Positions 207 through 22,735 of a stretch of 64,000 nucleotides of DNA are shown here, piece by piece. A model generated the notes under the pieces. The model had not been told where the DNA came from, ran no database searches, and saw only the letters and a list, made by a program, of their open reading frames with translations. Made by a program: the position numbers and the translations under genes. Every line of letters starts with the position of its first letter. Position 1 is the stretch's first letter. The stretch comes from a virus. The DNA lies in IMG/VR virus record IMGVR_UViG_3300009034_000015, positions 1 to 64,000 of that record; one strand, 5' to 3'.

Positions 207-365
207 CTAATCATCGATTAAAGATAATAAAATTTGCACTCCAATAATTAAAAATGCAGCTAACCAAATATCTGTTTTTAAACTTTTAAAATCTATAATA
301 ATATAAAGAATACTTAACGACCCACAAGTTACTAAAATAAGCCAAGATATAATTCTTAATCTCAT
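207..365 (-). CDS. Small membrane protein (52 aa, not in ORF track)
   Basis: Hand-translated ORF MRLRIISWLIFSNLWVV... with two hydrophobic segments; ATG overlaps the upstream TAA. Confidence 0.5.
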   Translation of the reverse strand: MRLRIISWLILVTCGSLSILYIIIDFKSLKTDIWLAAFLIIGVQILLSLIDD

Positions 366-850: not shown

Positions 851-1381
851 TTAAAAAATAGAACTTTTAGATTGCATTAATAGAGCTATCCCATGACCAC
901 CTGTTATTAATAAAGGTTGCCTCTCTACGATAGCAGGTATCTTAATTCTAATAGGATAAAAAATCGTTTTTGTAATTTCATCTTTTTCTTTTTTTGAAAT
1001 AGCTCTTAAAATTAAACTAAAGTATCTTGAATTAATAATAGCTTCATTATTAACAAGTTTATTTAATTCTAACTTTTTTAATTCATCTTTAAAAAACTTA
1101 ATTATTTCTGGATAACTTAATTTTCCTGATCCACTTAAATAAGTTTTTCCTTTTTCTTGCTTCTTTAAAATTATATTTTTAGATTTATTTACTTTAATTA
1201 AATGCATTCCGTTTTTAACATCATTAAAAATTTGATTCCATTTAATAAGAAAATATCCATTTGTCCAAATAACTTGCTCTTTATTTATAATTAAATAATT
1301 TATAATTTCAGATGAATCTTCTTTACTAATTAAATTATTATAACAGAATTTTGCTAAATCTTCTAAATCTTCAAACTTCAT
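851..1381 (-). CDS. Hypothetical protein
   Basis: 176-aa ORF abutting both neighbours. Confidence 0.6.
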   Translation of the reverse strand: MKFEDLEDLAKFCYNNLISKEDSSEIINYLIINKEQVIWTNGYFLIKWNQIFNDVKNGMHLIKVNKSKNIILKKQEKGKTYLSGSGKLSYPEIIKFFKDELKKLELNKLVNNEAIINSRYFSLILRAISKKEKDEITKTIFYPIRIKIPAIVERQPLLITGGHGIALLMQSKSSIF

Positions 1382-1654
1382 TTAATTTCCTATCCTTAAA
1401 AACGAATTTCTTTTAACTTCTAAAACCCTAATACTTTCAAAATAAAAAACTTTAACTTTCTTACCCCTTATAATATTATTTTTATCCTTAACAAGTTCAG
1501 TTAAATAAAAAAATTTATCTCTACACTTTTTGCTAAGTAAATTATACTCTAATTTACCTAAATAAATATATTTAGGCCACATTCCAGTTTCTTTAACATA
1601 ATTACTAATTACATCCTTTATCATAGTTTCTATATTATTTTCTTGCTGCCCCAT
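1382..1654 (-). CDS. Hypothetical protein
   Basis: 90-aa ORF, translationally coupled. Confidence 0.6.
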   Translation of the reverse strand: MGQQENNIETMIKDVISNYVKETGMWPKYIYLGKLEYNLLSKKCRDKFFYLTELVKDKNNIIRGKKVKVFYFESIRVLEVKRNSFLRIGN

Positions 1655-2295
1655 TATTTTAAATCCTTCTCTTCTGATATTTTATGAAAAAGTTCTGCTC
1701 CCTCTTTTTGCTCTTTTAAAAAAGTATCATGCCCAAAAACTTGTTCTATTGAAGCATTTCCAATATGTTCAGCAAATGAATCGGTTCTAAATCCTATTTT
1801 ATAACCCATCTTTTTAGCTCTTATAAACCACTCACTATCTTGTCCATAAAACGAGAACCTCTCATCGAATTTTCCTATTAACTCCCAATCACTTTTTTTA
1901 AAGAAAAAACAAAATCCTGATATGATACATTCCCTAAATCCAAATTCTAATGGCTTGTTATAACCTTTTTGTAATGAACCACAATTTGTTGTTATTGGCC
2001 CAACTGCCCCAAGTTTATCTACTATATTAAAAGTTTCTATTAAATTATATAACCAACCTTCGTGAGTTACAAAAGCATCTGAATCTATAATTCCTAAATA
2101 TTCATAAGGAGAATCAATAACAAACTGATTCCATACCTTACTCATATTTAAATCCATAGTTTCTTTTCTATTATCAAATATCTGCAAACGATAAGGATAG
2201 TTTGTATATTTAATAAAATTAGAAATTGATTTAGTTTCAATATCTAATGATTTGAACTTTAAAAATAAAATATCTACTCTATCTTGTTCTTTCAT
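1654..2295 (-). CDS. Glycosyltransferase family 2
   Basis: IIDSD DxD motif, ISGFCFFF, GKFDERF..YGQDSEW..RA; start taken at the ATG at 2295, which overlaps the upstream stop. Confidence 0.85.
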   Translation of the reverse strand: MKEQDRVDILFLKFKSLDIETKSISNFIKYTNYPYRLQIFDNRKETMDLNMSKVWNQFVIDSPYEYLGIIDSDAFVTHEGWLYNLIETFNIVDKLGAVGPITTNCGSLQKGYNKPLEFGFRECIISGFCFFFKKSDWELIGKFDERFSFYGQDSEWFIRAKKMGYKIGFRTDSFAEHIGNASIEQVFGHDTFLKEQKEGAELFHKISEEKDLK

Positions 2296-2447
2296 TAATC
2301 CTCCACCACCCACCAGGGCTTAATATATTTTTCTACCTTTTGTTGTAATACAAGATGGCTAATTAATACTTCTTGATTATTTTCTGATAGAACTGTTTTA
2401 ATATCCCATTCTCTAATCAATTCTCTTTTTACAAGTATTTCTTTCAT
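2295..2447 (-). CDS. Hypothetical protein (50 aa, not in ORF track)
   Basis: Hand-translated MKEILVKRELIREWDIK...; start and stop overlap both neighbours. Confidence 0.55.
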   Translation of the reverse strand: MKEILVKRELIREWDIKTVLSENNQEVLISHLVLQQKVEKYIKPWWVVED

Positions 2448-2659
2448 CCCAGCTCCTTTAGGAATTGGTTAACAGAAGATATAGTTAAGAATGATTTATA
2501 TATATTTCTTGTTCCTTTTCTAAAATCTATTATAATAAAATACCTTACTTTTGCACTAAAGGAACCCGCAGTCTTATCTATAATAATTTTACGAAGTTTT
2601 ATCTTTTTTCTCACAGCCCAAATCCTATCGTGATATTCCTTTACTTCATCTGCGGTCAT
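2444..2659 (-). CDS. Hypothetical protein
   Basis: 71-aa ORF with ATGA overlaps. Confidence 0.6.
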   Translation of the reverse strand: MTADEVKEYHDRIWAVRKKIKLRKIIIDKTAGSFSAKVRYFIIIDFRKGTRNIYKSFLTISSVNQFLKELG

Positions 2660-2838
2660 AACTCCTCCTCTGTTATAACTTCTTGCCCATCTACTTTAAG
2701 CCAATGAACATCGTCTTTCTTTTTTCTTCTTTTCCATGTAGCTTTAATATTAGTCTTAATTAAAATTCTTAGAATATTTTGAAACCATCTTCCCTTTGTT
2801 TTTTCAACTGGCCAACCAAGCTTATTTCTTAATAGCAT
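2656..2838 (-). CDS. Small basic protein, paralog of 63826..63996
   Basis: GGAGGGAG RBS; 26 of the first 38 residues identical to the ORF at the window's right end. Confidence 0.7.
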   Translation of the reverse strand: MLLRNKLGWPVEKTKGRWFQNILRILIKTNIKATWKRRKKKDDVHWLKVDGQEVITEEEL

Positions 2839-2895
2839 ACTCCCTCCTCAACCCACCCCTCCCGTTGCACACCGGGCACGCCTTACCGTCAATAA

Positions 2896-4122
2896 TTATT
2901 TCTTTAACCATTGATTTATTATCTTTACAATATACTTTACTTCCTTCCACAGCAAATTTGCTCTTATTGGAACATACACATATCTCTTTTCAATCCAATT
3001 CATATTTGGTAAGTTCCATCTCTTACCTCCAAAGATAGAAAATAAATCATTCCTTATATGACAAAGACTTGTCTCAATTCCATAAGCAGCCATATATTCC
3101 ATAAACTCTGCTCTTTCAAAAATATATAAAGGAAATAACCAATATGAATTATGAGGATTATAAAATTCAGTAGGTAGACATTTAACATTCCCATCATAAT
3201 AATTTATATTTTCAAAATAAAATTTAGCAATCTTTTTTCTTTTATTTAAATTACTAAAGAAAGTATCTAATTCACCTAAACCTATGCTTGCAGCAATATC
3301 ATTCATGTGATATTTAAAACCAGATTCTTTTATATCATAAGTTAATTCTTGCTTTAAATCATCCCAGGCTTTCCAGCCCATCCCTTTCTTTGCTTCACGA
3401 TCAATCCCAAACCATCTTAATCTTTTAGCCAATTTATAAGTTTCTTCATCAGGGCAACAAAGTAAACCTCCATCTCCAGTCGTTAAACTTTTAATAGCTT
3501 GAAATGAAAAACAAACAAAAGATTTAGAAGAATCCCCAATCCATTTCTCTACTATCGGAAAATAATTTTTTTCTTTTCCTTGTTTAGTTGTAATTGAATC
3601 AGAATATTGCGATCCTAAAGCTTGACAAGCATCTTCTATAATTGGAATATTATATTTTTCTGATATATTATAAATTTTATCTAAATCTAAAATAGGCATG
3701 CCGCCTAAATGAACTAACATAATTGCAGTATTATTTAATAAATGATTATTCTTCCTATAAAGTATCATACTATATAAATTATCATAATCAATATTCATAG
3801 TTTCTTTATCTATATCTATAAATTCTAAATTACAATTATTATTTATTATAACCTGATTTGTAGCTGTGCAAGTTAAAATTGGACTAAAGAATCTTAACGA
3901 ACCTTTACTTTCCATATTTATAATCTTAACAGCTAAATCTAAAGCAGCAGTTCCAGAGTTTACAAGAACAGGATATTGAAAACCAAAAAGCTTTTTAAAT
4001 TCATTTTCTAATTCATCAACCCTTTCAGCCTGACCAATCCAACGAGTTGACATAGTTTTATATGCTAAGTCTTTTGCTTTTTTACTGAGCTGAGGTTTAA
4101 ACATAGGGATTTTAATTTCCAT
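2896..4122 (-). CDS. DegT/DnrJ/EryC1/StrS family PLP-dependent sugar aminotransferase
   Basis: VNSGTAAL, IIEDACQALG, FSFQAIKSLTTGDGG (PLP lysine), GFKYHMNDIAASIG. Confidence 0.93.
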   Translation of the reverse strand: MEIKIPMFKPQLSKKAKDLAYKTMSTRWIGQAERVDELENEFKKLFGFQYPVLVNSGTAALDLAVKIINMESKGSLRFFSPILTCTATNQVIINNNCNLEFIDIDKETMNIDYDNLYSMILYRKNNHLLNNTAIMLVHLGGMPILDLDKIYNISEKYNIPIIEDACQALGSQYSDSITTKQGKEKNYFPIVEKWIGDSSKSFVCFSFQAIKSLTTGDGGLLCCPDEETYKLAKRLRWFGIDREAKKGMGWKAWDDLKQELTYDIKESGFKYHMNDIAASIGLGELDTFFSNLNKRKKIAKFYFENINYYDGNVKCLPTEFYNPHNSYWLFPLYIFERAEFMEYMAAYGIETSLCHIRNDLFSIFGGKRWNLPNMNWIEKRYVYVPIRANLLWKEVKYIVKIINQWLKK

Positions 4123-4131
4123 TTTAAACTC

Positions 4132-4425
4132 CTAATTAATAGTAATCCTATCTTGTAATTTTAAATCTACAAATTTTTCAATTTCACATTTATCACAAGC
4201 TTGATACCTTTGAAACAACCTACCATGTATTATGATAACTGTTTTAATTTTACAAAATGGACATTCAACAATCACTTCATTAACTTCAGCATTAATAGCC
4301 TTAATAATATTAGCTTCTTTTTGCCTCTCAATTTCATTTATTAATTCAGTTTTAATCCAAGCAAGAAAGGGTAATTTTAAAATAAACTTTATAGTATAAT
4401 AAATAATAGAAATATATTTTTTCAT
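4132..4425 (-). CDS. Hypothetical Zn-ribbon protein
   Basis: CPFC...CDKC pairs, hydrophobic N-terminus. Confidence 0.6.
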   Translation of the reverse strand: MKKYISIIYYTIKFILKLPFLAWIKTELINEIERQKEANIIKAINAEVNEVIVECPFCKIKTVIIIHGRLFQRYQACDKCEIEKFVDLKLQDRITIN

Positions 4426-4426
4426 T

Positions 4427-4891
4427 TTAAACTCCTAAAGGAATATTATAAGCTCTTTTCATTCCACAAATTAAATCTATTTCAATAGGAAAAATTACAG
4501 TAGATTCTAAACATAATCGAATTAACCATTTTAAATTATAAATAGTATTAATTTTATCAGAAGAAATTTCATTCACTTGATAAATTAATAAATCTTCCTC
4601 AGTCATTTTCTTAGCATATTCTAATTTGCCAATTGAAGCATAAAAATAAACTAAACAATCTGGAGTGTTCATTTTTACTTTTAATTTCCACCAATCAATT
4701 TGTAAATCCGTTTCCTCTTTAAATTCCCTTTTTATGGCATCATAAGGAGATTCATTCTGCTCTACTTTACCACCTATTCCATTTAATCTACCTACTTGCC
4801 AATCAGGCTTCTTTTTCCTAATTAATAAAACTGATTTTAAATCTTTAGAAAATAAAAAACCAACTACATAACTATCTTTTATTTCTTGCAT
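4427..4891 (-). CDS. NUDIX hydrolase
   Basis: Nudix box GGKVEQNESPYDAIKREFKEETDL. Confidence 0.92.
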   Translation of the reverse strand: MQEIKDSYVVGFLFSKDLKSVLLIRKKKPDWQVGRLNGIGGKVEQNESPYDAIKREFKEETDLQIDWWKLKVKMNTPDCLVYFYASIGKLEYAKKMTEEDLLIYQVNEISSDKINTIYNLKWLIRLCLESTVIFPIEIDLICGMKRAYNIPLGV

Positions 4892-8708: not shown

Positions 8709-9833
8709 TTAAAATGGAATTTCAAGGTCATTTCCACACTCAGGGCAAGTAGTCTCTTTTTCATCTACTTCTGTATCACAGTCAGGACACACTACCTTTT
8801 CTGATTTACTTTTTTTCTTTTTCTTTTTTTTCTTATTATCTTCTTCATCCTCATCGTCATCTTCGTTTTCATCCTCATCATCATCTTCTTGCTGCTTCTC
8901 TTTTTTCTTCTTTTTCTTTTTATCCTTTACTTCGTCATCGTCCTCATCTTCATCAGAATCTTCAGTATCCTCTTCTTCTTCATCTTCTTTTTCTTTCTTG
9001 CGCTTTTTCTTCTTTTTACTTTTTTCTTCCTCTTCATCTAATCCTTCTACTTTTTCTTCAAGCTTAATTAAAAACTTTTCAAACCTTGGATGCTCAATTG
9101 CTTCCTTCATTAAACTTAAAGTTTTTTCAAACGAAGTAGGATTCACCAAGCCACTTATATCAGGTATTTCAGATTCAAATAATTCCTCTATATCTTCTGT
9201 TGGCTTTTTAGAATTAAAATGAGCATTATACATTTCACTCCCGGCTTTATCAGGGTCATAAGTAGTTTTAATAGCATAAGGATTTTTAAATGGATTACCT
9301 GCATCATCACCTTCCTCTTCCATTTGATCCTTTATCACTGCTGCTATTTTTTCTCCAAGCGTAGTTGTGGTAACTAATTTCCCAATTATAGGATTTTTAA
9401 CTGTTACTGCTATAAAAACAAACTCCCTTCTTGCAGTTAGATTATATCGCCAGTCATAGGTTTTTTTACCAAGTAACTCACCTTTGCAGATTTCAGTCCT
9501 ATTAGCTTTTTTACCAAGCTCAATAATAATCTCATCATCTTCAAGGTCTTCAAACTTATTTAGTTTTTTAATTAACTTATGTATAAAACAGCTATCAGCT
9601 CCAGGGCAGATGATCCTTTCACTAATAACTATCTTTTTAATTTTCTTTCCACCATCATCAGTTTCAACTTCCCTACTAATTAATGCAGGGAATCTATGAA
9701 CCCATCGTTCTTCTATTTCAGATTTAGGATGTAAAAAGAAAATTAATTTACCTTTATCCTTCCAACTAATAATAGAACTTTCTCCACCTCTTTGCTCTGC
9801 TGAATCTAAAAATTGTTTAACTTTCATTTCCAT
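8709..9833 (-). CDS. Probable ssDNA-binding protein with Lys/acidic tail and Zn ribbon
   Basis: Next to RecA; acidic tail; CPDC...CPEC; ends DLEIPF, like the bacterial SSB C-terminal tip. Confidence 0.65.
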   Translation of the reverse strand: MEMKVKQFLDSAEQRGGESSIISWKDKGKLIFFLHPKSEIEERWVHRFPALISREVETDDGGKKIKKIVISERIICPGADSCFIHKLIKKLNKFEDLEDDEIIIELGKKANRTEICKGELLGKKTYDWRYNLTARREFVFIAVTVKNPIIGKLVTTTTLGEKIAAVIKDQMEEEGDDAGNPFKNPYAIKTTYDPDKAGSEMYNAHFNSKKPTEDIEELFESEIPDISGLVNPTSFEKTLSLMKEAIEHPRFEKFLIKLEEKVEGLDEEEEKSKKKKKRKKEKEDEEEEDTEDSDEDEDDDEVKDKKKKKKKEKQQEDDDEDENEDDDEDEEDNKKKKKKKKSKSEKVVCPDCDTEVDEKETTCPECGNDLEIPF

Positions 9834-10490
9834 TTACTCCTTTCTATCTAAAACTATAATATCATCAAAAATTACTGGTATTAATCTTTTAAATTGTTTT
9901 AACATCGGAACGGTTATTTCTCTCATTTGAGGATGTGCTTTTAATGAAGTTCTTTGAATAAAAAAAAGCCTCCATTCCCTTAAATTATAAGTAACAACTA
10001 TTTCTGTTTTTAAAGAATTAGGTAAAACACTTCTTGCTTCTTGAGGAGATGCACCTAACTCAATTAATTTTAAATAATGCTCTTCTGCATTTTCCATTGC
10101 AGAATACCAAATACCATAACAACCAGGCTTTCTATTGAATTTAAAGAAAAAAGGTTCTATAACTGTTATTTCCCCACCAAATTCTCCTTTAGCATAATTA
10201 CAATAACGAGTGCTTTCCTGGGAATAACTTGCAATCCTATGCCTAACTATTTCATGTGTCACTCCTCTATCGCAAACTATCCTAACTGTAACTTTTTCAT
10301 GCTCTAAAACAGATTCGTGACCAGACTTAATTATTTGTCTAATAAATTTTTCAGCAGAATTTGTTGTAATTTTATCCTCACTTTTATAACAAGTCCTACC
10401 CGCTCTCTCAATCTTCTGAAGTATTTCATTTCCATTAATTTCATCTTCAATCATAAAATAAGGTTCAATTACTTTCATGCATTCCTCCAT
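9834..10490 (-). CDS. thyX: FAD-dependent thymidylate synthase (canonical)
   Basis: GHESVLEH, RHRIASYSQESTRY, ARSVLP, AHPQMR. Confidence 0.95.
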   Translation of the reverse strand: MEECMKVIEPYFMIEDEINGNEILQKIERAGRTCYKSEDKITTNSAEKFIRQIIKSGHESVLEHEKVTVRIVCDRGVTHEIVRHRIASYSQESTRYCNYAKGEFGGEITVIEPFFFKFNRKPGCYGIWYSAMENAEEHYLKLIELGASPQEARSVLPNSLKTEIVVTYNLREWRLFFIQRTSLKAHPQMREITVPMLKQFKRLIPVIFDDIIVLDRKE

Positions 10491-10879
10491 TCTTGGTTAT
10501 CTAATCTTTCTAATTCATCATAAACAACCTTCCATAAATCTACTTTAAGTATTTCAGCAAGAAAAGCTGAATGAATTATTAAACCACCTATCGAACTTCT
10601 AAGCCGATCCATAGCACCTTCGCCTTTGCATCTAGGACTATCCGGACTAACTCTTTTATAATATGATATTCTTGCTATATCTCCAAGCTGACCCTGAATT
10701 ATAGCCAACCTATGATAATCCGATTTATCAATTTCACCTTTCATTAAGCCTTGGATATATTTTTGCAAATGCAATAAACCTTTTGTTATTTCTTGAGAAT
10801 GTTTATCTAAAAAATCTTCACCATGCAAAGGACTAATTCCCCTACCATAAGCTTTAATATTACAATTACAACTACTCAC
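10475..10879 (-). CDS. MazG-like all-alpha protein with degenerate acidic motif
   Basis: IQGQLGDIA ... SSIGGLII..AFLAEILKVDL pattern resembles MazG (GExGEL...ELGD...LA..LxIDL). Confidence 0.5.
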   Translation of the reverse strand: MSSCNCNIKAYGRGISPLHGEDFLDKHSQEITKGLLHLQKYIQGLMKGEIDKSDYHRLAIIQGQLGDIARISYYKRVSPDSPRCKGEGAMDRLRSSIGGLIIHSAFLAEILKVDLWKVVYDELERLDNQEWRNA

Positions 10880-11524: not shown

Positions 11525-14293
11525 TTAAAACCTAAAAGCATTTGCATTTTTAAGTGCCTCTACTACTCTCTTATTAACAATCCTTTTAGTTACTTTATTA
11601 AAAAAATCTTCTTCATTTTCAAAAGGTTGATTCTTATAAATATCAATTGCAGCCTTAGTTCCAATTCCTTTTATACTACTAATTCCTGATCTAATATTGC
11701 CATTCTCTATTTTAAAATTAATCTTAGAACGATTTATTCTAACTGGTAAAACTTTAATTCCTAATCTTTTACATTCATTAATATATTTAGCTGAATCATC
11801 TTTTTCATTTCTCATTAATGAAACCATAAATTCAAGTGGGAAATAAGTTTTTAAATATGCTGTCCAATAACTTACTAATGAATAAGCTACAGCGTGAGCA
11901 CGATTAAAAGTATAAGCAGAAAAATGATTCATATCATTCCACAATCTTTCTATTTCCTTTTCAGTTAGATTTTCTTTTCCATACTTAAAAAACTTTGCTT
12001 TTAATTCCTTTTTTAACTTATCATAAATTTGTAACTTATCAAGCCTACGCTTAAGAAAGACTTTTCTGAATCCCTCAATCTCATTAGATTCAATTTTATG
12101 AACTATTTTTTTATAAATTTCTAACATTTGCTCCTGATATAAAATTAACCCATAAGTTGAAGAAAGAGTATCTTTTAAAAAAGGTGGAACTTTATATTTA
12201 CTTTCTTCAGATTTACGATTTACAAATAAATCAACCATACCATAGCTCATTGGTCCAGGACGGCCAAGAGCAATAGCAGCAATTAATTCTTCAAACGAAC
12301 TACATTGAATATCTGATAATAATTTAGTCATCATTCTTGACTCAAATTGAAATATTCCAGTAGTATGTTTCTTCCTAACATTCTTAAAAACTTTTTTATC
12401 ATCTAACCGAATATTATTTAAATCAAATGAACTATCAATGAAACCTAAAGTTTCTTTAATAACTCTTAAAGTATTTATTGCAAGTAAATCAAATTTAACA
12501 AACCCCAGCGAAGATAACTCTTGCCTTAATCCTCCCTCAGACCAGGCAGTAATTGGTTTTCCTTGGCTTAGCATCAAAGCTATATTTTTTGTAATCGGTG
12601 AAGATAATATTATAATCCCTGCCGCATGCCTTGATATTCCTTTAATCTGACCCTTTAAAGTATCAAACGCTAAAGGCACATCCTTATATTTATTTTCTAT
12701 CCTTCTCATAATATCAGGATGTTTTGTTATTGTCATTAACTCTTCCCAAGTATTTTCAAATTCAATTTGAAGCCTTCTACTATCCCCACCTCCAGTATAT
12801 TTAAATTTATATTCTGTTATCTTAGAAACTTTTTTCATATCTAATTGAAATAGACGAGCTAAATCAAGCAATAATACTTTTACACTATAAGTTTGATATG
12901 TCCCTATTTCAATTACATTATTTTGCCCCCATCTTTTTGATAAATATTTCTTAACATAATCTCTTCCAGCCGGCTCAAAGTCAAGGTCTACATCTGGAGG
13001 TTCAGTTCGTTCAGCTGAAATAAATCTTTCAAATTTTAAACCAAATTTTATAGGATCAATAATTGTAATTCCTAACAAATAACAAATCAATGAACCTGAC
13101 GCTGACCCTCTACCTGGGCCAACAAAAATATTTTTATTTTTAGCAAAGTTAATTAAATCAGCCAATATTAAAAAATATGAACTTAATTTTCGTTCCTTAA
13201 CTATTTTCAATTCAGTCTGTAATTGATTTTTATAAGTATCATTATTTTTAAATTCAGCTTTATTCCAATTCTTAATAATTTCTTTTTTTAAAAATTCAAA
13301 ATCAGACTTAGAAGAATCAGTAAAAAATGGTAATTTATTTTTTAATTCAGGTTTAAAATCCTCTACATTCTCAAATATATTCTTACTTTCTTTTATCCCA
13401 GCTTCCCAATCTTTTTCTGACAAATAAGATGAATGATATTTTTTATAAATTTTATATAATTCATCAACAGTTTTAAACCAAAGCGTCTTTGTAGAAAAAG
13501 AAAATCCTTTATTATTTTCAAGATCATTAAGAGTATTTTTATTTCGTAATAATAATAAAAACTGATGAACTTTTGATTCTAATTTATTTATATAATGACA
13601 ATCATTAGTAATTACAAATGGAATATCATAATCCTTAGCAAATTTATATAATAATTTATTTGACTCAATACTTTCAGGATAATCAAATAACATTAATTCA
13701 ATATAGAAATCCTCAAAAATATCCTTATATTTATATAAAAGTTTTTTAGCTTTTTTTACTTTATCTTGAGATAATAATTTACTTAATCTTGAAGAGGCAC
13801 ATCCTGATAAACAAATTAATCCCTCACTATGCTTAGAAATAAAATCAAGATCAGTTCTTGGTTTATAATAAAATCCATTAAGCCAAGAATCTGCCGTAAT
13901 CTCTAATAAATTTTTCCAGCCTATTGAATTTTTAACTAATAATGTTAAATGAAAATTTTTTCTAATCTTCTCACGCTCTTTAATTAATTCTTGTAATTTT
14001 TCATTTTTATCTTTACGTTTAACTTTTAGAATATCCTCTTGTAGCTGACTTAATAATAATCTTTTTTGATTTAAATATAATTCACAGCCAAAAATTGATC
14101 TAATTTTCTTTTCATTATTTTTCTTAATCTGTCTAACCCAGCCACCAATAGAGCCATGGTTAGTTATAGCAAATCCTTCAAAACCTAACTCTTCTGATTT
14201 ATTATAATAACCCTCTACCTTACCAACAGAATCCATAATTGAATATTCATCGTGGCTATGCAGATGGATAAAATCTTTATTAGTTAAATTCAT
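11525..14293 (-). CDS. dnaE: DNA polymerase III alpha subunit
   Basis: PHP domain HLHSHDEYS, GRGSASGSL, PDVDLD, KFDLL, FNRAHAVAY; ends after the HhH region. Confidence 0.96.
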   Translation of the reverse strand: MNLTNKDFIHLHSHDEYSIMDSVGKVEGYYNKSEELGFEGFAITNHGSIGGWVRQIKKNNEKKIRSIFGCELYLNQKRLLLSQLQEDILKVKRKDKNEKLQELIKEREKIRKNFHLTLLVKNSIGWKNLLEITADSWLNGFYYKPRTDLDFISKHSEGLICLSGCASSRLSKLLSQDKVKKAKKLLYKYKDIFEDFYIELMLFDYPESIESNKLLYKFAKDYDIPFVITNDCHYINKLESKVHQFLLLLRNKNTLNDLENNKGFSFSTKTLWFKTVDELYKIYKKYHSSYLSEKDWEAGIKESKNIFENVEDFKPELKNKLPFFTDSSKSDFEFLKKEIIKNWNKAEFKNNDTYKNQLQTELKIVKERKLSSYFLILADLINFAKNKNIFVGPGRGSASGSLICYLLGITIIDPIKFGLKFERFISAERTEPPDVDLDFEPAGRDYVKKYLSKRWGQNNVIEIGTYQTYSVKVLLLDLARLFQLDMKKVSKITEYKFKYTGGGDSRRLQIEFENTWEELMTITKHPDIMRRIENKYKDVPLAFDTLKGQIKGISRHAAGIIILSSPITKNIALMLSQGKPITAWSEGGLRQELSSLGFVKFDLLAINTLRVIKETLGFIDSSFDLNNIRLDDKKVFKNVRKKHTTGIFQFESRMMTKLLSDIQCSSFEELIAAIALGRPGPMSYGMVDLFVNRKSEESKYKVPPFLKDTLSSTYGLILYQEQMLEIYKKIVHKIESNEIEGFRKVFLKRRLDKLQIYDKLKKELKAKFFKYGKENLTEKEIERLWNDMNHFSAYTFNRAHAVAYSLVSYWTAYLKTYFPLEFMVSLMRNEKDDSAKYINECKRLGIKVLPVRINRSKINFKIENGNIRSGISSIKGIGTKAAIDIYKNQPFENEEDFFNKVTKRIVNKRVVEALKNANAFRF

Positions 14294-15147
14294 TATTTTT
14301 CTTTATCAAAATCCTTATACTTTTCAGTTTTAATTTCTGGTCCATTATTCATTTCATCACGAGTAAAATTATGAAGAGTTCTTTCGTTATCTATATTACA
14401 ATCTCTTGGTAAAAATTTCTTATGTAATTCATTCCTTTTAAAAACTATATTTGAGAACTCTCCAGGCTTAGAATGTAGACACTTTCCAGTCTCACAATCC
14501 TTCTTAAAAAAATCTTCTAAATAAGGAAACTTTTTTATAACTAATTTTATCATTTTTTCACAAATAATATTATTCTGAATATGCTCTTCCTGATCATCAA
14601 GTCTTTTTCCAATAGCATCTTTAAGAGCTAAAAGATTCATATGCATATACATCCAATTACAATTATTTTTAGGAATTAAAACCCTTGCATTCTGAACACT
14701 AATATTAAGTTCATCAATAGCCTCACAAAATAATTCTTTACCTTGTAAAACCCATTCTTTATATCTATCATAAAAAAATTTATTTCTTGCAAATGATCTT
14801 GGGACAAGAATATTTTCATTCCTTAAATCACTTACTTGTGTTGATCTCTGCATTATAGAAAAAAATTTGTGCCTAACCCAACAATGAGTTATTAATAAGG
14901 AAATATTTTTTACTAAGAATGTAAAATTTATCATTTCAATTCCTTTTGGCAATACTCCTTCTTTTAACAATAAATTAATTGCATTTTTCTTTTGCTCTTT
15001 AGTTAATTTTTTATAAACCTCTACTTCTTCATTAGCATAAATTATATCTACTAAAACTTTTTCAATTCTTTTTTTATCTGGCCAATCAATTAATTCTACC
15101 TTAATAGAATTAATTTCATCTAAAAATCTTGTTTTAAATCCTTTCAT
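14293..15147 (-). CDS. Divergent ThyX-like flavoenzyme (second paralog)
   Basis: WVRHKFFSIMQRSTQ and ARVLIP motifs, MNLLAL; several canonical residues replaced. Confidence 0.75.
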   Translation of the reverse strand: MKGFKTRFLDEINSIKVELIDWPDKKRIEKVLVDIIYANEEVEVYKKLTKEQKKNAINLLLKEGVLPKGIEMINFTFLVKNISLLITHCWVRHKFFSIMQRSTQVSDLRNENILVPRSFARNKFFYDRYKEWVLQGKELFCEAIDELNISVQNARVLIPKNNCNWMYMHMNLLALKDAIGKRLDDQEEHIQNNIICEKMIKLVIKKFPYLEDFFKKDCETGKCLHSKPGEFSNIVFKRNELHKKFLPRDCNIDNERTLHNFTRDEMNNGPEIKTEKYKDFDKEK

Positions 15148-16078
15148 CTTTAAACTCCTTTGAAAATTTTATTACATCCTGAATTTTATAATCTGATTGC
15201 CATTTAGCTAATCTTCCAACAAAATTAATAGATTTTAAATCTTCTATTCTTTCACTAAAAATAGTAGAAACTCGTTGAATCACATAATCAATTATTTTAT
15301 ATTCTAATAATCTTTTACATTCTTCTCTACTTAAATCACCAGCTATTTCTAAAACATACTTACCTTTGATTGTAATCCCTTTATAAAGATTAGCCTTTGT
15401 TATTCTATTATAAATCTGATCCCCATCTGCATAATATAATTGATCCCACTCAAACGGAATTAACCATGATGGTATTTCATTACAAGATATAATTGTACTT
15501 GGTAAATAATCAAATTTATTATTAAAAAAATAATCAAAACATAAATAAGAAAAATCAGGTGCTGGAATTGTAGATATTAATGAATCAAAATAAAATTTAT
15601 CATAATTAGAAAGTGTAATATAATTATTCTTTAAACTTATTAAAACAACTTTCTTTTTAATTATTTCAGTATTCTTTATTAATTTTTTTAAAAGGATATT
15701 AACATCACATTCTAAATACTTTAATTCATTAGAATCTACACTCAATACTAATTTATATATTTCTTTTCTTTCTCCAATCTTAAATAATGAATGAGTAAGT
15801 TTTTTATTTATAATTTTTATTTTTTGTTCTTTACTAATATTATTATGAAATTCTGATTTATAAAAATAACCTATTCTAATTATTTTTGATTTATAAGGAA
15901 CTTTTAAATCATTAAGCAATGAACGGGTTTCATTAGTATCATGTAATACAATTAATGTCCCTAACTTAGATTTAATCTGCCCACCTATTTTTGGTGATAT
16001 TAAAGTATAATCAGGATTATAGTATTTAAAGATTAATCCACTTATACCAGCGCCAATTATAATTTTTCGCTTACTCAC
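15134..16078 (-). CDS. FAD-dependent oxidoreductase (UDP-galactopyranose mutase / amine oxidase superfamily-like)
   Basis: IIIGAGISGL dinucleotide-binding motif, IGG, LISTIP, FVGRLAKW...DVI. Confidence 0.8.
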   Translation of the reverse strand: MSKRKIIIGAGISGLIFKYYNPDYTLISPKIGGQIKSKLGTLIVLHDTNETRSLLNDLKVPYKSKIIRIGYFYKSEFHNNISKEQKIKIINKKLTHSLFKIGERKEIYKLVLSVDSNELKYLECDVNILLKKLIKNTEIIKKKVVLISLKNNYITLSNYDKFYFDSLISTIPAPDFSYLCFDYFFNNKFDYLPSTIISCNEIPSWLIPFEWDQLYYADGDQIYNRITKANLYKGITIKGKYVLEIAGDLSREECKRLLEYKIIDYVIQRVSTIFSERIEDLKSINFVGRLAKWQSDYKIQDVIKFSKEFKDERI

Positions 16079-16592
16079 CTATTTTTCTCATTACTTCCTT
16101 CCACTCATTTATATAACTCTTAAGTGGATAGCCATATAAAACATAAGCAGGATGTGAAATTCTTATAACCTTAATTCTAAGGTCAATATCATTTACTGTA
16201 TCAAAAACAATTTTTCCTAAGCATAATATTATTTTTGGTCTAATAATATCTATTTCATTTATTAATAATCTTTTAAAAGCCTGTCTTGTTTTATTTATTT
16301 CTTTTGGAACTAAATATAAATTATTCCAAAAATAATCATTAATATTTAATCCTAATTTATCAAAAACTTTTAATATTACCCCACTTGATTTTCTTCCTGT
16401 AGTTAATATTAAATCAAAGTCAAATCTAAAAATTGATTTTGATTTACCTCTATAATGCTTTATCCCTGGTTCTAATCCTAATATCATAATTTCAGAATTT
16501 AGATTTCCAAAATGAGTTATCAATCTTTTATATTTAGGAGCAATCTTATTATAAAGTTTTTGTAAAGCTTTTTCTTTTTTAATTAAGTTCAC
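16071..16592 (-). CDS. Uracil-DNA glycosylase superfamily protein (family 4-like)
   Basis: GNLNSEIMILGLEPG, EIDIIRPKIILCLGK, SHPAY. Confidence 0.85.
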   Translation of the reverse strand: MNLIKKEKALQKLYNKIAPKYKRLITHFGNLNSEIMILGLEPGIKHYRGKSKSIFRFDFDLILTTGRKSSGVILKVFDKLGLNINDYFWNNLYLVPKEINKTRQAFKRLLINEIDIIRPKIILCLGKIVFDTVNDIDLRIKVIRISHPAYVLYGYPLKSYINEWKEVMRKIGE

Positions 16593-16791
16593 TTTTATCC
16601 TTTTCTGTTAATTTTTGTAATTTTGGATCCGAGCCTTTATAGTCCTTATAAGGTCTATCCCCTATTATTATTTTATAATAAATATTTTTTAATAATAATA
16701 TTATAATAGTTATTAATAATAAATCTATTATTAATATACAACAGACTTTGAATAATAACTTTAAGTTTATATAGAGCGTAGCAAAATCCAT
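16579..16791 (-). CDS. Small membrane protein
   Basis: Single long hydrophobic segment; ATG at 16791 after AGGAG. Confidence 0.55.
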   Translation of the reverse strand: MDFATLYINLKLLFKVCCILIIDLLLITIIILLLKNIYYKIIIGDRPYKDYKGSDPKLQKLTEKDKSELN

Positions 16792-16792
16792 T

Positions 16793-17332
16793 TTAAATTT
16801 TCTCCTTAACCTGAGCAATTAAATTTCTTAATGAACTTGGTAAATTTGAAGAAACTAAAAACTCAGCATTATAATTATATTTCTTTATTAATTCTTTATA
16901 GTAAGTTTGTAATTGCATCTGCATATCTATATAATCTTCACTATAATCAATTTTAGGAACTCTCTTTTTTCTTCTTGAGATTACATCTTCTCTACTAACT
17001 GAAAGATGAAAAATTTTATAATCTAAATCTTTTAATAATTCATTATAAACTGATCTTTGAAAATAAATTCCTTTGCTTCTAAACCAAGAGACAGATACTA
17101 AATCAGATACAAAACCTCTATCTAATATTAAATCCAAGTTAAACTTCTTTACTAATTCAAGTATTGTCTTATTAATACCAAAGTTAATTAAATCAAAAAG
17201 ATTATAATCTTTATGCAATTTATATACAAGTCCAAGATTTTCAGAAAATAAAGGAATAGCCAAACTCTTGCTAACTTCTCGTGAAAGTGTAGATTTTCCT
17301 GAACAACTTATACCTTCAAATATTATTAGCAT
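16793..17332 (-). CDS. Deoxynucleoside monophosphate kinase (TMPK-like), copy A
   Basis: FEGISCSGKST P-loop and LILDRG. Confidence 0.8.
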   Translation of the reverse strand: MLIIFEGISCSGKSTLSREVSKSLAIPLFSENLGLVYKLHKDYNLFDLINFGINKTILELVKKFNLDLILDRGFVSDLVSVSWFRSKGIYFQRSVYNELLKDLDYKIFHLSVSREDVISRRKKRVPKIDYSEDYIDMQMQLQTYYKELIKKYNYNAEFLVSSNLPSSLRNLIAQVKEKI

Positions 17333-17340
17333 TTTATACC

Positions 17341-17865
17341 TCAATAATAAATATTTTTAATTTGTCCAATCATTTCTTTTATAGATAATCTTGAATCAAA
17401 ATAATATACCTTTTCATATCGTTTAGAAAATTCTTGAAAATAATTTTGAAAAATTATTAATTCATTTAAATAACCTTCGGTAACTCTATTATTTTTTTCT
17501 AATAATCTTTTTTTAAGAGTTTCTTTATTTATAACTAAAAATATAATAATATAATTTAAATTTATTAAACGTTCATTATAGCTTTTTAATTTTAAACTAA
17601 TATCTTTATGCCTAATAAATGAAGTTTGTACTAAATCAGTTAAAAAACCTTCATCTAATATTAAATCAAAATTAAATTTTTTAGTTATCTCTAAAATAGT
17701 TTTATTAACTCCAAAATTAATTAAATCAAAATTATCAAAATTACCTCCAAGTTCATCAAGTAAATCTGGCTGTTTAATATATTCTGAAATAGCTAAAGAT
17801 TTACTTACTTCTTTACTTAAAGTAGTTTTACCAGAGCTTTTAATACCTTCAATTATTATTAACAT
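17341..17865 (-). CDS. Deoxynucleoside monophosphate kinase-like, copy B
   Basis: IEGIKSSGKTT P-loop and LILDEG; clear tandem paralog of copy A. Confidence 0.75.
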   Translation of the reverse strand: MLIIIEGIKSSGKTTLSKEVSKSLAISEYIKQPDLLDELGGNFDNFDLINFGVNKTILEITKKFNFDLILDEGFLTDLVQTSFIRHKDISLKLKSYNERLINLNYIIIFLVINKETLKKRLLEKNNRVTEGYLNELIIFQNYFQEFSKRYEKVYYFDSRLSIKEMIGQIKNIYY

Positions 17866-17886: not shown

Positions 17887-17915
17887 ATTATAATCCATAA
17901 CTAAATAAAATTAAT
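17887..17915 (-). promoter_or_regulatory. Promoter ATTAAT-N17-TATAAT
   Basis: Exact motif directly upstream of the kinase RBS. Confidence 0.7.
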
Positions 17916-18044
17916 TAGTAGAATTTAGCCTTATAAATAATTTTATAATACCTTATCAGGCTTCTCAGATTAGCCCAGGTTAAGACTTAACTAATAAAGC
18001 CTTAGCTTACCCCTAATTTAGAACTAAAACCCCTTAAAAGGCAT

Positions 18045-18083
18045 AAAAAAAGGGATAAGCTAAATTAATAACTTATCCCTTTT
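18045..18083 (-). terminator. Intrinsic terminator
   Basis: AAAAGGGATAAG/CTTATCCCTTTT stem followed by a U tract. Confidence 0.8.
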
Positions 18084-22393: not shown

Positions 22394-22735
22394 TTACACC
22401 TCCTTTCTTTTTCTACACTTCTTGCATCGTTTATAAAGATCACTAAAGGATTTTTTTAAATCAACTTTAGTATTCTTTTCGGTATTATCTAAATTTAATA
22501 AAATATCTCTACTATATTTTATATAAGCATTATGATTCAGATTACGCTTCTTCATTTCCTTAGCTAACAAATCATGACGATCCCAAATAGCTAAGGGTTC
22601 TACAAATTGCTGTAAGGCAAGTTTGCCTAATTTTCTTCCTTTTGCAATATGACCAGCAAGTTTATGCAATTCATAATGTTCACCTAATAAATGCTGATTA
22701 CATAATAAGGAAGGTTTTAGCATCCACATCCTCAT
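22394..22735 (-). CDS. denV: Pyrimidine-dimer DNA glycosylase / endonuclease V family
   Basis: MRMWM..P..LCNQHLLGEHYELH and RHDLLAKEMKKR..NH. Confidence 0.8.
   Translation of the reverse strand: MRMWMLKPSLLCNQHLLGEHYELHKLAGHIAKGRKLGKLALQQFVEPLAIWDRHDLLAKEMKKRNLNHNAYIKYSRDILLNLDNTEKNTKVDLKKSFSDLYKRCKKCRKRKEV

What the first reader, a model, noticed from the sequence alone, without database searches (positions are those of the whole stretch)
14293..17865. Putative new DNA base-modification pathway: divergent ThyX, flavoprotein, UDG and twin kinases upstream of dnaE
Seen: one promoter (17887) heads kinase B, kinase A, a TM peptide, a UDG-family protein, an FAD oxidoreductase and a ThyX-like gene, which is coupled to dnaE. 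A canonical thyX exists separately at 9834, so the second copy is not needed for dTMP. Against the canonical copy it keeps RH, both Ser, Gln and AR..P, but changes RHR to RHK, STRY to STQV, HE to HC, and loses the N-terminal His motif (GHESVLEH becomes GVLPKGIEM). Known: phages make modified pyrimidines at the nucleotide level with thymidylate-synthase paralogs plus dedicated dNMP kinases and their own polymerase; described cases mostly use the ThyA fold. Inference: a ThyX-fold enzyme with altered substrate or chemistry works with the flavoprotein to make a non-canonical nucleotide, and the glycosylase may edit or discriminate unmodified DNA.
Basis: partly seen in the sequence, partly recalled or inferred. 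Interest (0 to 1): 0.8.

Follow-up and report, generated by a model that had tools for sequence, protein, structure and literature searches.

The report
Phage ThyX-paralogue and flavoprotein nucleotide cassette
This uncultured phage keeps, next to its DNA polymerase gene, a rewired second thymidylate synthase (ThyX type) paired with an unknown flavoprotein; the pair recurs in many phages and probably makes an altered thymine-type DNA building block, but no chemistry has been measured.

Summary
Six tightly packed minus-strand genes (two Tmk-like kinases, a small hydrophobic ORF, a UDG-family protein, a Rossmann flavoprotein, a divergent ThyX) run into dnaE. A canonical thyX lies 4 kb downstream.

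New here:
- The flavoprotein gene lies just upstream of this ThyX clade in all 23 related loci that show enough upstream DNA.
- In IMG/VR, flavoprotein relatives sit within 6 kb of a "long" ThyX-like gene in 20 of 29 loci. Tmk-like kinases, minimal ThyA-like enzymes, dUTPase/5'-nucleotidase fusions and a phage polymerase are often nearby.
- Every long form lacks the equivalents of His53, Arg90 and Tyr91, which canonical ThyX needs for folate stacking and methylene transfer.
- Three genomes carry both a canonical and a long ThyX, so the long form is not simply the phage's thymidylate synthase.
- The UDG-like protein is fused to DnaE or to the kinase in relatives. It reads as a polymerase accessory, not an editor specific to the pathway.
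- Distant members of both families occur in Pbunavirus F8. Its DNA has a published hypermodified thymidine whose genes are unassigned.

The product is unknown, and a variant dTMP synthase is not excluded. This scan has already noted the same cassette on other genomes.

The parts
17341..17865 (-). kinB: Tmk-like P-loop dNMP kinase paralogue in which the DR motif reads DE (LILDEGF)
   Evidence: ORF. phrog_761 thymidylate kinase E=4e-10. Pfam Thymidylate_kin is below its cut-off. 44% identical to kinA.
16793..17344 (-). kinA: Tmk-like P-loop dNMP kinase with the DR motif intact (LILDRGF)
   Evidence: phrog_761 E=2.5e-12. It clusters with the ~140-aa kinase that follows ThyX2 in 14 related loci.
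16579..16818 (-). 79-aa hydrophobic ORF (TTG start). Not known to be a real gene.
   Evidence: Mechanical ORF. No family hit above any cut-off. No homologue in related loci.
16071..16592 (-). UDG-superfamily protein: a degenerate family-4-like form without Fe-S cysteines, motif A GLEPG, motif B HPAY
   Evidence: Pfam UDG 42.9 bits. TIGR00758 scores 26 bits against a cut-off of 125. Homologues stand alone, or are fused to DnaE (L046, L056) or to the kinase (L040, L043).
15134..16078 (-). 314-aa FAD-type flavoprotein of an uncharacterised viral family, a minimal member of the amine-oxidase/PPO/UGM/renalase fold
   Evidence: GAGISG and GG motifs. AlphaFold model pLDDT 91.7. Foldseek top hit is UDP-galactopyranose mutase 4dsg, E=7e-15, followed by L-amino-acid oxidase, renalase and PPO. 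No Pfam, PHROG or NCBIfam hit. Always adjacent to ThyX2.
14293..15147 (-). ThyX2: 284-aa 'long' ThyX-fold paralogue with a Cys/His-bearing C-terminal extension. It lacks the His53, Arg90 and Tyr91 equivalents.
   Evidence: Pfam Thy1 77 bits. TIGR02170 scores 47.5 bits against a cut-off of 87.9. Model pLDDT 90.8. Foldseek hit to T. maritima ThyX, E~1e-11, TM 0.77. 43 invariant columns in 28 clade members. Motif table.
11525..14293 (-). dnaE-type (Pol III alpha) DNA polymerase, translationally coupled to ThyX2
   Evidence: Pfam PHP, DNA_pol3_alpha, finger and HHH_6 domains. TAATG overlap with ThyX2.
9834..10490 (-). thyX1: canonical flavin-dependent thymidylate synthase
   Evidence: Pfam Thy1 169.8 bits. 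It has GHESVLEH, RHR and STRY. Aligned with M. tuberculosis ThyX chains.
17887..17892 (-). TATAAT hexamer 22 nt upstream of the kinB start. A candidate -10 box, unproven.
   Evidence: Sequence. The scan shows no enrichment over shuffles.
18040..18080 (-). Hairpin followed by a T-run after the upstream ORF. A candidate terminator that would mark the start of the operon.
   Evidence: Sequence read. The terminator scan does not list it, because the loop is longer than 8 nt.

Best explanation
The operon is this phage's version of a widespread, uncharacterised viral cassette that feeds the phage replisome with a 5-substituted dUMP/thymidine analogue, in parallel with ordinary dTMP made by thyX1.

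Shown:
- ThyX2 has the ThyX fold and keeps the residues that hold FAD and a pyrimidine nucleotide: RH(R/K), the Ser88, Gln, Arg147 and Arg174 equivalents.
- It lacks the folate-stacking His53 and the Arg90/Tyr91 pair that drives methylene transfer.
- It has gained a conserved C-terminal extension bearing two conserved Cys.
- Its gene is always preceded by the flavoprotein gene.
- Tmk-like kinases, a UDG-like domain and a phage polymerase travel with the pair.

Inferred:
- ThyX2 still uses flavin N5 covalent chemistry on C5 of dUMP, but with a different electrophile or outcome. Candidates are hydroxymethylation, or alkylation by something larger than one carbon.
- The flavoprotein either supplies or activates that electrophile, or keeps the flavin reduced.
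- One or both kinases phosphorylate the product towards the triphosphate.
- The UDG-like protein works with DnaE as a uracil sensor or remover ahead of the fork.
- Because this phage keeps thyX1 and has no dNTPase, replacement of T would be partial rather than complete.
For: - Pairing. Flavoprotein immediately upstream of ThyX2 on the same strand in all 23 loci with visible upstream DNA (16 full-length, 7 cut at the contig end). In IMG/VR, 20 of 29 flavoprotein loci have a ThyX-like gene within 6 kb, and two of the others have one elsewhere on the contig.
- Family size. 170 clusters at 50% identity reach E<=1e-10 with the ThyX2 profile.
- Active site. Every long form lacks the His53, Arg90 and Tyr91 equivalents, while the short ThyX in the same viruses keeps them. 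Published mutants: Y91A slows carbinolamine consumption more than 100-fold, S88 and R90 also matter, and His53 stacks on the folate pteridine (PMC8316439, PMC11940539).
- Not redundant. A canonical and a long ThyX co-reside in this genome, in the contig behind L032 (127.9 and 82.7 bits) and in L056.
- Nucleotide context. Tmk-like kinase after ThyX2 in 14 loci. A MazG-like domain is fused to the flavoprotein in L011, L015 and L017, or to an NT5C 5'-deoxynucleotidase.
- Fusions. UDG-DnaE and kinase-UDG fusions.
- Experimental anchor. Pbunavirus F8 gp059 and gp065 are distant members of the two families (hhalign 97.4% and 87.5%). F8 and 14-1 DNA contains hypermodified thymidines whose genes are unassigned (PMC12191111).
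Against: - No chemistry exists for any member.
- In most relatives no canonical thymidylate synthase is visible on the short contigs. There ThyX2 could simply be the dTMP synthase, working beside a dCMP-specific ThyA-like enzyme, as in T4.
- This genome lacks the ThyA-like enzyme and the dUTPase/nucleotidase fusion, so nothing here removes a canonical nucleotide.
- The F8 modification affects about a quarter of T, in a TG context. That fits post-replicative action on DNA better than a nucleotide-pool route.
- The F8 homologies are remote (15-25% identity).
- The flavoprotein fold is shared by enzymes with very different chemistry, so the fold does not fix a function.
Confidence: 0.5

Rival explanations
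1. ThyX2 plus the flavoprotein is a two-component variant thymidylate synthase that still makes dTMP. It would use another one-carbon donor or reductant, for example formaldehyde released by an amine-oxidase-type flavoprotein, or flavin reduction by the partner. Such a system would be useful in hosts with poor folate or NADPH supply. On this view thyX1 is a redundant or recently acquired second copy.
For: - ThyX can use free formaldehyde in place of CH2-THF (PMC8316439).
- ThyX2 has lost the folate-stacking His.
- The flavoprotein's structural neighbours include amine oxidases and NAD(P)H-binding renalase and eukaryotic UGM.
- A Tmk-like kinase follows ThyX2.
- In relatives the other TS-fold gene carries Asp at the N177 position, the dCMP-specific signature (PMC13326640). 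ThyX2 would then be the only dUMP-directed enzyme in view.
- Some flavoprotein loci (L036, L051, and the contig behind L042) show only a short canonical ThyX.
Against: - Arg90 and Tyr91, needed for methylene transfer whatever the donor, are also missing.
- Three genomes carry a fully canonical ThyX as well.
- No known ThyX needs a protein partner.
Confidence: 0.25
2. The flavoprotein is an NDP-sugar mutase-like enzyme that makes an unusual sugar donor for glycosylating DNA or virion proteins. ThyX2 only supplies a hydroxymethyl-pyrimidine acceptor. The two are neighbours because both serve a post-replicative DNA glycosylation route.
For: - The top structural match is UDP-galactopyranose mutase. 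The profile alignment places invariant Tyr215 and Arg225 on the segment of A. fumigatus UGM that I read, by position count from memory, as holding Tyr317 and Arg327.
- SDR epimerase/RmlD-like and aldo-keto reductase genes sit in several cassettes.
- A glycosyltransferase lies in L011, and P0081 is a GT2-ThyX-like fusion.
- Rhizobium phage RL38J1 uses a true UGM for DNA galactosylation (PMC13326640).
- This genome has a large sugar-biosynthesis cluster.
Against: - There is no Pfam GLF match.
- The protein is about 70 residues shorter than bacterial UGM, and its model shows no five-helix uridine-binding domain.
- Strict adjacency to ThyX2 holds even where no glycosyltransferase is visible.
- The MazG-like fusions point to nucleotide rather than sugar substrates.
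Confidence: 0.15
3. ThyX2 is a decaying, non-functional duplicate, and the gene order is a relic.
For: Several canonical catalytic residues are lost, and the window copy has RHK instead of RHR.
Against: - 43 invariant and 39 nearly invariant columns across 28 proteins that are only 46-61% identical to the window's copy.
- A confident compact model.
- Conserved synteny and translational coupling.
- A family of hundreds of clusters.
Confidence: 0.03

Closest known systems
Canonical flavin-dependent thymidylate synthase ThyX (T. maritima TM0449, M. tuberculosis ThyX; PF02511)
   Same: Same fold (Foldseek E~1e-11, TM 0.77 to 1o26). Keeps RH(R/K), the Ser88, Gln, Arg147 and Arg174 equivalents. Probably binds FAD and a pyrimidine nucleotide.
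   Different: Lacks the His53, Glu86, Arg90, Tyr91 and His178 equivalents. Has a C-terminal extension of about 70 residues with conserved Cys. Scores below the TIGR02170 equivalog cut-off. Always paired with a flavoprotein. Co-resident with a true ThyX.
PolB of polyoxin biosynthesis (Streptomyces; ThyX paralogue, UMP/dUMP C5-methylase, PDB 4p5b)
   Same: A neofunctionalised ThyX paralogue that co-exists with a housekeeping ThyX. It is among the structural hits (rank 17).
   Different: PolB keeps methylase chemistry and has no flavoprotein partner. It is bacterial secondary metabolism, not a phage replication module. No specific sequence relation was found.
Pre-replicative pyrimidine replacement in T4, RB69, SPO1 and Xp12 (ThyA-fold dCMP/dUMP hydroxymethylase, hydroxylase or methylase, plus a dNMP kinase and a dNTPase)
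   Same: A thymidylate-synthase paralogue and a dedicated dNMP kinase placed beside the phage's own polymerase. Relatives of this cassette also carry a dCMP-type minimal ThyA-like enzyme and a dUTPase/NT5C fusion.
   Different: The modifying enzyme here has the ThyX fold, for which no phage base-modification role is described. It has an obligate flavoprotein partner. This phage has no dNTPase and keeps a canonical ThyX.
Pbunavirus F8 and 14-1 thymidine hypermodification (Yee et al. 2025 preprint, PMC12191111)
   Same: F8 gp059 (long ThyX-like) and gp065 (GxGxxG ... GRxAxW flavoprotein) are distant members of the two families. They lie in one block with the DNA polymerase and a MazG-like gene.
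   Different: Only remote homology (hhalign 97% and 87%). The genes have not been tied experimentally to the modification. The F8 modification is partial and in a TG context. The hosts and the rest of the phages are unrelated.
UDG-DNA polymerase fusions of SPO1-like and SP15-like phages with T-modified genomes (PMC13697223)
   Same: A UDG-family domain linked in cis or in trans to the phage replicase. In relatives of this window it is fused to the polymerase.
   Different: The polymerase here is DnaE type, not family A. The window's UDG lacks Fe-S cysteines and has motif A GLEPG, so its activity is uncertain.
UDP-galactopyranose mutase, and the amine oxidase, protoporphyrinogen oxidase and renalase superfamily
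   Same: FAD Rossmann domain with a GG motif, the same overall fold, and a C-terminal GR...aromatic motif.
   Different: No Pfam match to any of these. Minimal size (314 aa). The substrate domain is reduced. A viral-only family found in a nucleotide-metabolism context.

Membership tests
ThyX (flavin-dependent thymidylate synthase, PF02511 / TIGR02170) | ThyX fold and a Pfam Thy1 match above the gathering score | tested here: met
   Thy1 77.3 bits against a cut-off of 24.8. Foldseek to 1o26/1kq4, E~1e-11, TM 0.76-0.77.
ThyX (flavin-dependent thymidylate synthase, PF02511 / TIGR02170) | Score above the NCBIfam equivalog cut-off (same function expected) | tested here: not met
   TIGR02170 scores 47.5 bits against a cut-off of 87.9.
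ThyX (flavin-dependent thymidylate synthase, PF02511 / TIGR02170) | ThyX motif RHRxxSxxxxSxRY, including Arg90 and Tyr91 | tested here: not met
   RHKFFSIMQRSTQV in the window and RHRFFTILQxSTAV in the clade. Ser88 is kept; Arg90 and Tyr91 are replaced. Their importance is stated in PMC8316439 and PMC11940539.
ThyX (flavin-dependent thymidylate synthase, PF02511 / TIGR02170) | His53 that stacks on folate and reduced flavin | tested here: not met
   GHESVLEH aligns with GVLPKGIEM, and no long form has a His there.
ThyX (flavin-dependent thymidylate synthase, PF02511 / TIGR02170) | Arg147 and Arg174 equivalents (dUMP phosphate binding and uracil activation) | tested here: met
   NAR155 and R182 are invariant in 28 sequences.
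ThyX (flavin-dependent thymidylate synthase, PF02511 / TIGR02170) | Converts dUMP to dTMP | not testable with these tools
   Needs an enzyme assay or thyA complementation.
UDP-galactopyranose mutase (GLF) | FAD Rossmann domain and overall three-domain fold | tested here: inconclusive
   GxGxxG and GG motifs are present. The top Foldseek hit is 4dsg at E=7e-15, but TM by target is only 0.47, and amine oxidase, renalase and PPO score nearly as well. Atlas structural neighbours are PPO and amine oxidases.
UDP-galactopyranose mutase (GLF) | Sequence-family match, and a helical uridine-binding domain | tested here: not met
   No Pfam or NCBIfam hit. The profile against PDB gives only E=0.015 over about 95 residues. 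The protein has 314 aa, and the model shows a loop with lower pLDDT (mean 63-80 over residues 101-120) where the helical domain would sit.
Family-4 uracil-DNA glycosylase | UDG superfamily fold | tested here: met
   Pfam UDG 42.9 bits against a cut-off of 24.3.
Family-4 uracil-DNA glycosylase | Family-level score, four Fe-S cysteines, and motif A GE(A/G)PG | tested here: not met
   TIGR00758 scores 26.2 bits against a cut-off of 125.3. The protein has a single Cys and motif A reads GLEPG. Relatives keep CxxC and GQNPS. Motif B (HPAY) is kept.
Thymidylate kinase (Tmk) | P-loop, DR(Y/F) motif and a family-level score | tested here: inconclusive
   P-loop present. phrog_761 E=2.5e-12 and 4e-10. 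Pfam Thymidylate_kin scores 17.5 and 21.7 bits against a cut-off of 27, and TIGR00041 scores 27-28 against 83. kinA has DR; kinB has DE.
Phage pre-replicative base-replacement system (T4 / SPO1 type) | Thymidylate-synthase paralogue plus a dedicated dNMP kinase next to the replicase | tested here: met
Phage pre-replicative base-replacement system (T4 / SPO1 type) | A dNTPase or nucleotidase that removes the canonical nucleotide | tested here: not met
   No homologue of the dUTPase_2/NT5C fusion or of the MazG-like domain in the 81.6-kb genome. The only candidate is an unassigned NUDIX gene at 4427-4891. Relatives do have these enzymes.
Phage pre-replicative base-replacement system (T4 / SPO1 type) | A non-canonical base in virion DNA | not testable with these tools
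   Uncultured phage; no sequencing run was listed.

The most novel reading that the evidence does not exclude
The long ThyX-like enzyme and the UGM-like flavoprotein together carry out a ThyX-type reductive alkylation of dUMP in which the one-carbon unit is replaced by an aldose. Flavin N5 forms an open-chain sugar iminium, as in UGM. Activated C5 of dUMP attacks its C1, as it attacks the N5-methylene in ThyX. Reduction then gives a 5-(polyhydroxyalkyl)-dUMP.

My own arithmetic fits the published Pbunavirus nucleosides. dU 228 + pentose 150 + 2 - 18 = 362, the F8 mass. dU 228 + hexose 180 - 18 = 390, the 14-1 mass, which would be the unreduced, cyclised product.

This would be a new C-C bond-forming flavoenzyme reaction, and it would be the missing biosynthesis of sugar-alcohol thymidines (Pbunavirus, perhaps the SP-15-type dihydroxypentyl-uracil). 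It is inference only.
Probability: 0.17. Interest if true: 0.92.

Novelty: new variant of a known kind. Interest (0 to 1): 0.72.

Why it matters
All characterised phage routes to modified pyrimidine nucleotides start from ThyA-fold enzymes. If this cassette makes a modified base, it shows that the unrelated ThyX fold has been recruited for the same purpose, together with a flavoprotein family that has no described member.

It would also assign genes to the hypermodified thymidines recently found in Pbunaviruses, which are widely used therapeutic Pseudomonas phages and whose modification genes are unknown. Such bases decide whether a phage escapes restriction and other nuclease defences, and whether its DNA can be sequenced. 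Because distant homologues occur in 362 cultured phage records, the question can be tested directly at the bench.

If the pair turns out to be a folate-independent or partner-dependent dTMP synthase instead, that too would be a new form of an essential enzyme.

Tried and rejected
Neighbourhoods came from the search for related loci instead.
- The IMG/VR scan with the ThyX2 alignment found nothing. The flavoprotein alignment did.
- The genome search cannot read metagenome loci or draw relatives of a virus record.
- The pdb_via library was not available.
- The Atlas does not hold the window's flavoprotein. A homologue, P0030, was used instead.
- The ThyX2 profile against PDB sequences gave no hit at E<=0.01, and the single sequence gave only E=0.33. 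The fold search was needed.
- tblastn of the window flavoprotein against cultured phages found no match. The link to cultured phages came only through HMM and hhalign comparison with F8 gp065.
- Rfam found nothing at 9-19 kb.
- The promoter scan gave no more sites than chance.
- No sequencing run was listed, and no RNA holder was listed.
- Rejected: 'c2 is a 5-hydroxy-dCMP synthase'. It keeps the Asp169 equivalent, whereas the published diagnostic is D169N.
- Rejected: a second flavoprotein paralogue downstream of the first in IMG/VR loci. That protein is a dUTPase_2/NT5C fusion, which BLAST clustered with the flavoprotein through the shared MazG-like domain.
- Not confirmed: orf134 (10475-10879) as a MazG-like protein.
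- I could not inspect model coordinates, so the Cys/His cluster and active-site geometry of ThyX2 were not examined.

Full report
**1. What is in the window**

The window is a low-GC (22-34%) phage genome with every gene on the minus strand. The whole record is 81,630 bp.

Between 17865 and 11525 lie seven ORFs whose ends overlap by 1-26 nt:

| Gene | Coordinates |
|---|---|
| kinB | 17341-17865 |
| kinA | 16793-17344 |
| 79-aa hydrophobic ORF | 16579-16818 |
| UDG-family protein | 16071-16592 |
| Flavoprotein (314 aa) | 15134-16078 |
| ThyX2 | 14293-15147 |
| dnaE | 11525-14293 |

- The ThyX2 stop and the dnaE start share one base (TAATG).
- Upstream of kinB there is a hairpin with a T-run, a perfect TATAAT at 17892-17887 and an AAGGAG ribosome-binding site.
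- The promoter scan finds no more sites than in shuffled sequence, so the single-promoter claim is plausible but unproven.
- A canonical thyX lies at 9834-10490 (Thy1 170 bits).
- ThyX2 scores 77 bits on Pfam Thy1 but only 47.5 on the TIGR02170 equivalog model, whose cut-off is 87.9.
- The UDG-like protein scores 43 bits on Pfam UDG.
- The kinases match phrog_761 'thymidylate kinase' and are 44% identical to each other. kinA has LILDRGF and kinB has LILDEGF.
- The flavoprotein matches nothing in Pfam, PHROGs or NCBIfam.

**2. The gene pair is conserved**

A search of 5.8 billion proteins found 28 close relatives of ThyX2, counting the window's own protein; the others are 48-62% identical to it. 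All are metagenomic.

The alignment has 43 invariant columns. The clade consensus keeps RHR, so RHK is this phage's own change. There is a conserved C-terminal extension containing C218, C223, H225, H242 and H259.

I obtained 28 metagenome loci and one locus from an archaeal MAG. The flavoprotein gene lies directly upstream of ThyX2, on the same strand, in every locus with visible upstream DNA. That is 16 loci with a full-length gene and 7 where it is cut by the contig end.

The usual order in these loci is:
- flavoprotein
- ThyX2
- a Tmk-like kinase of about 140 aa (14 loci)
- a 155-213-aa protein that I call c2 (18 of the 28 metagenome loci, plus L029 by tblastn)
- a family-B DNA polymerase

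c2 is a minimal ThyA-fold enzyme. It has the catalytic Cys, the RSxD motif, and Asp at the position of E. coli Asn177. Its best solved relative is T4 dCMP hydroxymethylase (E=2e-9). By the published diagnostics (N177D for dCMP, D169N for 5-hydroxy-dCMP synthases; PMC13326640) it is a dCMP C5-(hydroxy)methylase type.

The window's genome has no c2. It has thyX1 and DnaE instead.

**3. The wider family**

A profile search of 1.84 billion representatives gave 11 clusters at E<=1e-30, 170 at E<=1e-10 and 924 at E<=1e-3. Many of the best-scoring proteins are about 300 aa long; none of the ten looked up carries an informative name, one being called 'thymidylate synthase ThyX' by JGI.

Scanning IMG/VR with the flavoprotein alignment gave 29 loci. 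HMM maps of these loci show:
- A ThyX-like gene within 6 kb in 20 loci. In 15 of these it is a full-length long form (285-354 aa).
- The kinase in 16 loci.
- c2-like genes.
- A dUTPase_2/MazG-like domain fused to an NT5C 5'-deoxynucleotidase.
- SDR (RmlD-like) and aldo-keto reductase genes.
- DnaE- or PolB-type polymerases.

The MazG-like domain is fused to the flavoprotein itself in L011, L015 and L017 and in several IMG/VR loci. This ties the flavoprotein to nucleotide metabolism.

The UDG-like domain occurs in three arrangements:
- free-standing;
- fused to the N-terminus of DnaE (L046: UDG 66 bits, then PHP and Pol III alpha);
- fused to the kinase (L040, L043).

Published work shows that UDG domains fused to family-A polymerases of T-modified phages excise dU ahead of the fork and ignore bulky T derivatives (PMC13697223). 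The window's UDG has lost the CxxC cysteines, and its motif A reads GLEPG. I read it as a polymerase accessory of uncertain activity, not as an editor that belongs to the pathway.

**4. The enzymes**

*ThyX2.* The model is confident (pLDDT 90.8). It matches T. maritima ThyX structures (E~1e-11, TM 0.77) and also the polyoxin PolB.

Alignment with thyX1 and with all flavoprotein-linked ThyX-like proteins shows a clean split:
- Short forms (218-221 aa) have GHESVLEH, RHR and S-x-R-Y.
- Every long form (284-354 aa) lacks the His and the Arg-Tyr pair. It keeps the AR..P arginine and the Arg174 equivalent, and it adds a C-terminal extension in which two Cys recur. These Cys appear even in F8 gp059, in L031 and in P0081.

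In canonical ThyX:
- Ser88 and Tyr91 are strictly conserved and critical.
- Arg90 tunes Tyr91.
- His53 stacks on the folate pteridine and on reduced flavin (PMC8316439, PMC11940539).

So the long form cannot run the canonical mechanism unchanged.

Three genomes hold both a canonical and a long ThyX: this one, the 75.9-kb contig behind L032 (127.9 and 82.7 bits), and L056. This argues against simple redundancy.

*Flavoprotein.* The model (pLDDT 91.7) is a minimal member of the amine-oxidase/PPO/UGM/renalase fold.
- UDP-galactopyranose mutase is the top hit (E=7e-15).
- L-amino-acid oxidase, renalase and PPO follow closely.
- A profile search of PDB sequences gives only E=0.015 to fungal UGM. 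It aligns invariant Tyr215 and Arg225 with the segment of A. fumigatus UGM that I read, by position count from memory, as holding Tyr317 and Arg327.
- The Atlas places the family in unnamed viral clusters.

The fold does not fix the chemistry.

**5. Link to cultured phages**

Earlier notes of this scan describe the same cassette on other genomes and point to Pbunaviruses. I checked this.

- Yee et al. (PMC12191111) report that F8 and 14-1 virion DNA contains novel thymidine derivatives of 362 and 390 Da. These replace about a quarter of T, in a TG context, and no known modification genes are present.
- In F8, gp059 (305 aa, annotated FAD-dependent thymidylate synthase) matches the long-ThyX HMM (E=1.4e-44). 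It aligns with the ThyX2 clade at 97.4% hhalign probability, into the Cys motif of the extension.
- gp065 (333 aa, hypothetical) has GAGLAG at its start and GRFATW near its end. It aligns with the flavoprotein family at 87.5% probability.
- Both lie in one block with the DNA polymerase and a MazG-like gene.
- gp065 homologues occur in 362 cultured phage records, from Pseudomonas, Escherichia, Serratia, Rhizobium and other hosts.
- In Rhizobium phage RHph_Y65 the homologue (gp191, annotated 'polysaccharide deacetylase') lies 1.5 kb upstream of the ThyX gene that was a tblastn hit for ThyX2.

This is a correlation with a measured modification, not a proof.

**6. Reading**

Best reading (about 0.5): a conserved cassette makes a 5-substituted dUMP/thymidine analogue for the phage replisome.
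- ThyX2 is the C5-modifying flavoenzyme.
- The flavoprotein is its obligate partner, supplying the electrophile or the reducing power.
- The kinases carry the product onward.
- The UDG-like protein serves the polymerase.

This phage keeps thyX1 and has no c2, no dUTPase/NT5C and no MazG-like gene. Any replacement of T would therefore be partial.

Rivals:
- A partner-dependent or folate-independent dTMP synthase (0.25).
- A sugar-donor role for the flavoprotein in DNA glycosylation (0.15).
- Gene decay (0.03).

The most novel reading not excluded is a ThyX-type reductive alkylation of dUMP by an aldose through a UGM-like flavin-sugar iminium. By my own arithmetic it would give exactly the 362-Da (pentose, reduced) and 390-Da (hexose, unreduced) nucleosides. 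This is inference only.

**7. Novelty**

I found no paper that describes a ThyX-fold enzyme in phage base modification or this flavoprotein family. The only described neofunctionalised ThyX paralogue is PolB (PMC5954106).

The kind of system is known: a thymidylate-synthase paralogue plus a kinase beside the replicase. The fold and the partner are new. The same cassette has been reported several times by this scan on other genomes, so this window is one more instance, notable for its minimal form and its co-resident canonical ThyX.

Noticed in passing
window 365-4891, and genome 71241-81033 (outside the window): A large sugar or glycan biosynthesis cluster. It includes methyltransferases, a DegT/DnrJ/EryC1 aminotransferase (2896-4122), a NUDIX gene (4427-4891) and a GT-A-like gene (1654-2313). 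Beyond the window are GT2 genes, an SDR epimerase/dehydratase (79115-80083), CgeB-like genes and an alkaline-phosphatase-like gene. It could serve virion or host glycosylation, or supply sugars for a DNA modification.
   Followed up: partly
window 22394-22735: A T4 endonuclease V-type pyrimidine-dimer DNA glycosylase (Pfam Pyr_excise, E=1.4e-12) in the early region.
   Followed up: no
L031:1381-2388 (archaeon MAG ARS1176, second contig): Another divergent 335-aa ThyX-like gene (QHARAR instead of RHR, Cys-bearing extension) between a DnaE gene and a dCMP deaminase. hhalign to the ThyX2 clade gives 97.3%. The same MAG also holds a contig with the flavoprotein-ThyX2 cassette (L029).
   Followed up: partly
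L046:9510-12860; L040:6403-7347; L043:8850-9848: Domain fusions. L046 is UDG + PHP + Pol III alpha and also carries an intein. L040 and L043 are Tmk-like kinase + UDG-like domain. They suggest that the kinase, UDG and polymerase work as one physical complex.
   Followed up: partly
P0081 (551 aa, metagenomic): An N-terminal GT2-like glycosyltransferase domain fused to a long ThyX-like domain. This single case links the family to glycosylation. The GT2 assignment is my own reading of the sequence; no tool assigned the domain.
   Followed up: no
L020, L026, L021, L044, L004: Homing-endonuclease-like genes sit between or beside the cassette genes (Vsr/DUF559-like by my reading of the sequence; GIY-YIG + NUMOD3 by Pfam in L044). 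L004 has a split PolB. P0144 holds an intein-like insertion in a ThyX-like gene, again by my reading of the sequence. The module attracts selfish elements.
   Followed up: no
L062:5950-6912 (Rhizobium phage RHph_Y65 gp191): Annotated 'polysaccharide deacetylase', but it is a tblastn homologue of the F8 gp065 flavoprotein (35% identity, E=2e-38). The homologue in Serratia phage Hera is annotated 'galactopyranose'. The public annotations of this family are inconsistent.
   Followed up: partly
window 8709-9833: A 374-aa protein with a long Lys/Glu/Asp low-complexity tail and a C-terminal zinc ribbon, between recA and thyX1. Function unknown.
   Followed up: no
genome 72621-73166 and 72052-72624 (outside the window): An MT-A70-like (DPPW) adenine methyltransferase next to a class III nucleotide cyclase-like gene. 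Both assignments come from reading the sequence only.
   Followed up: no
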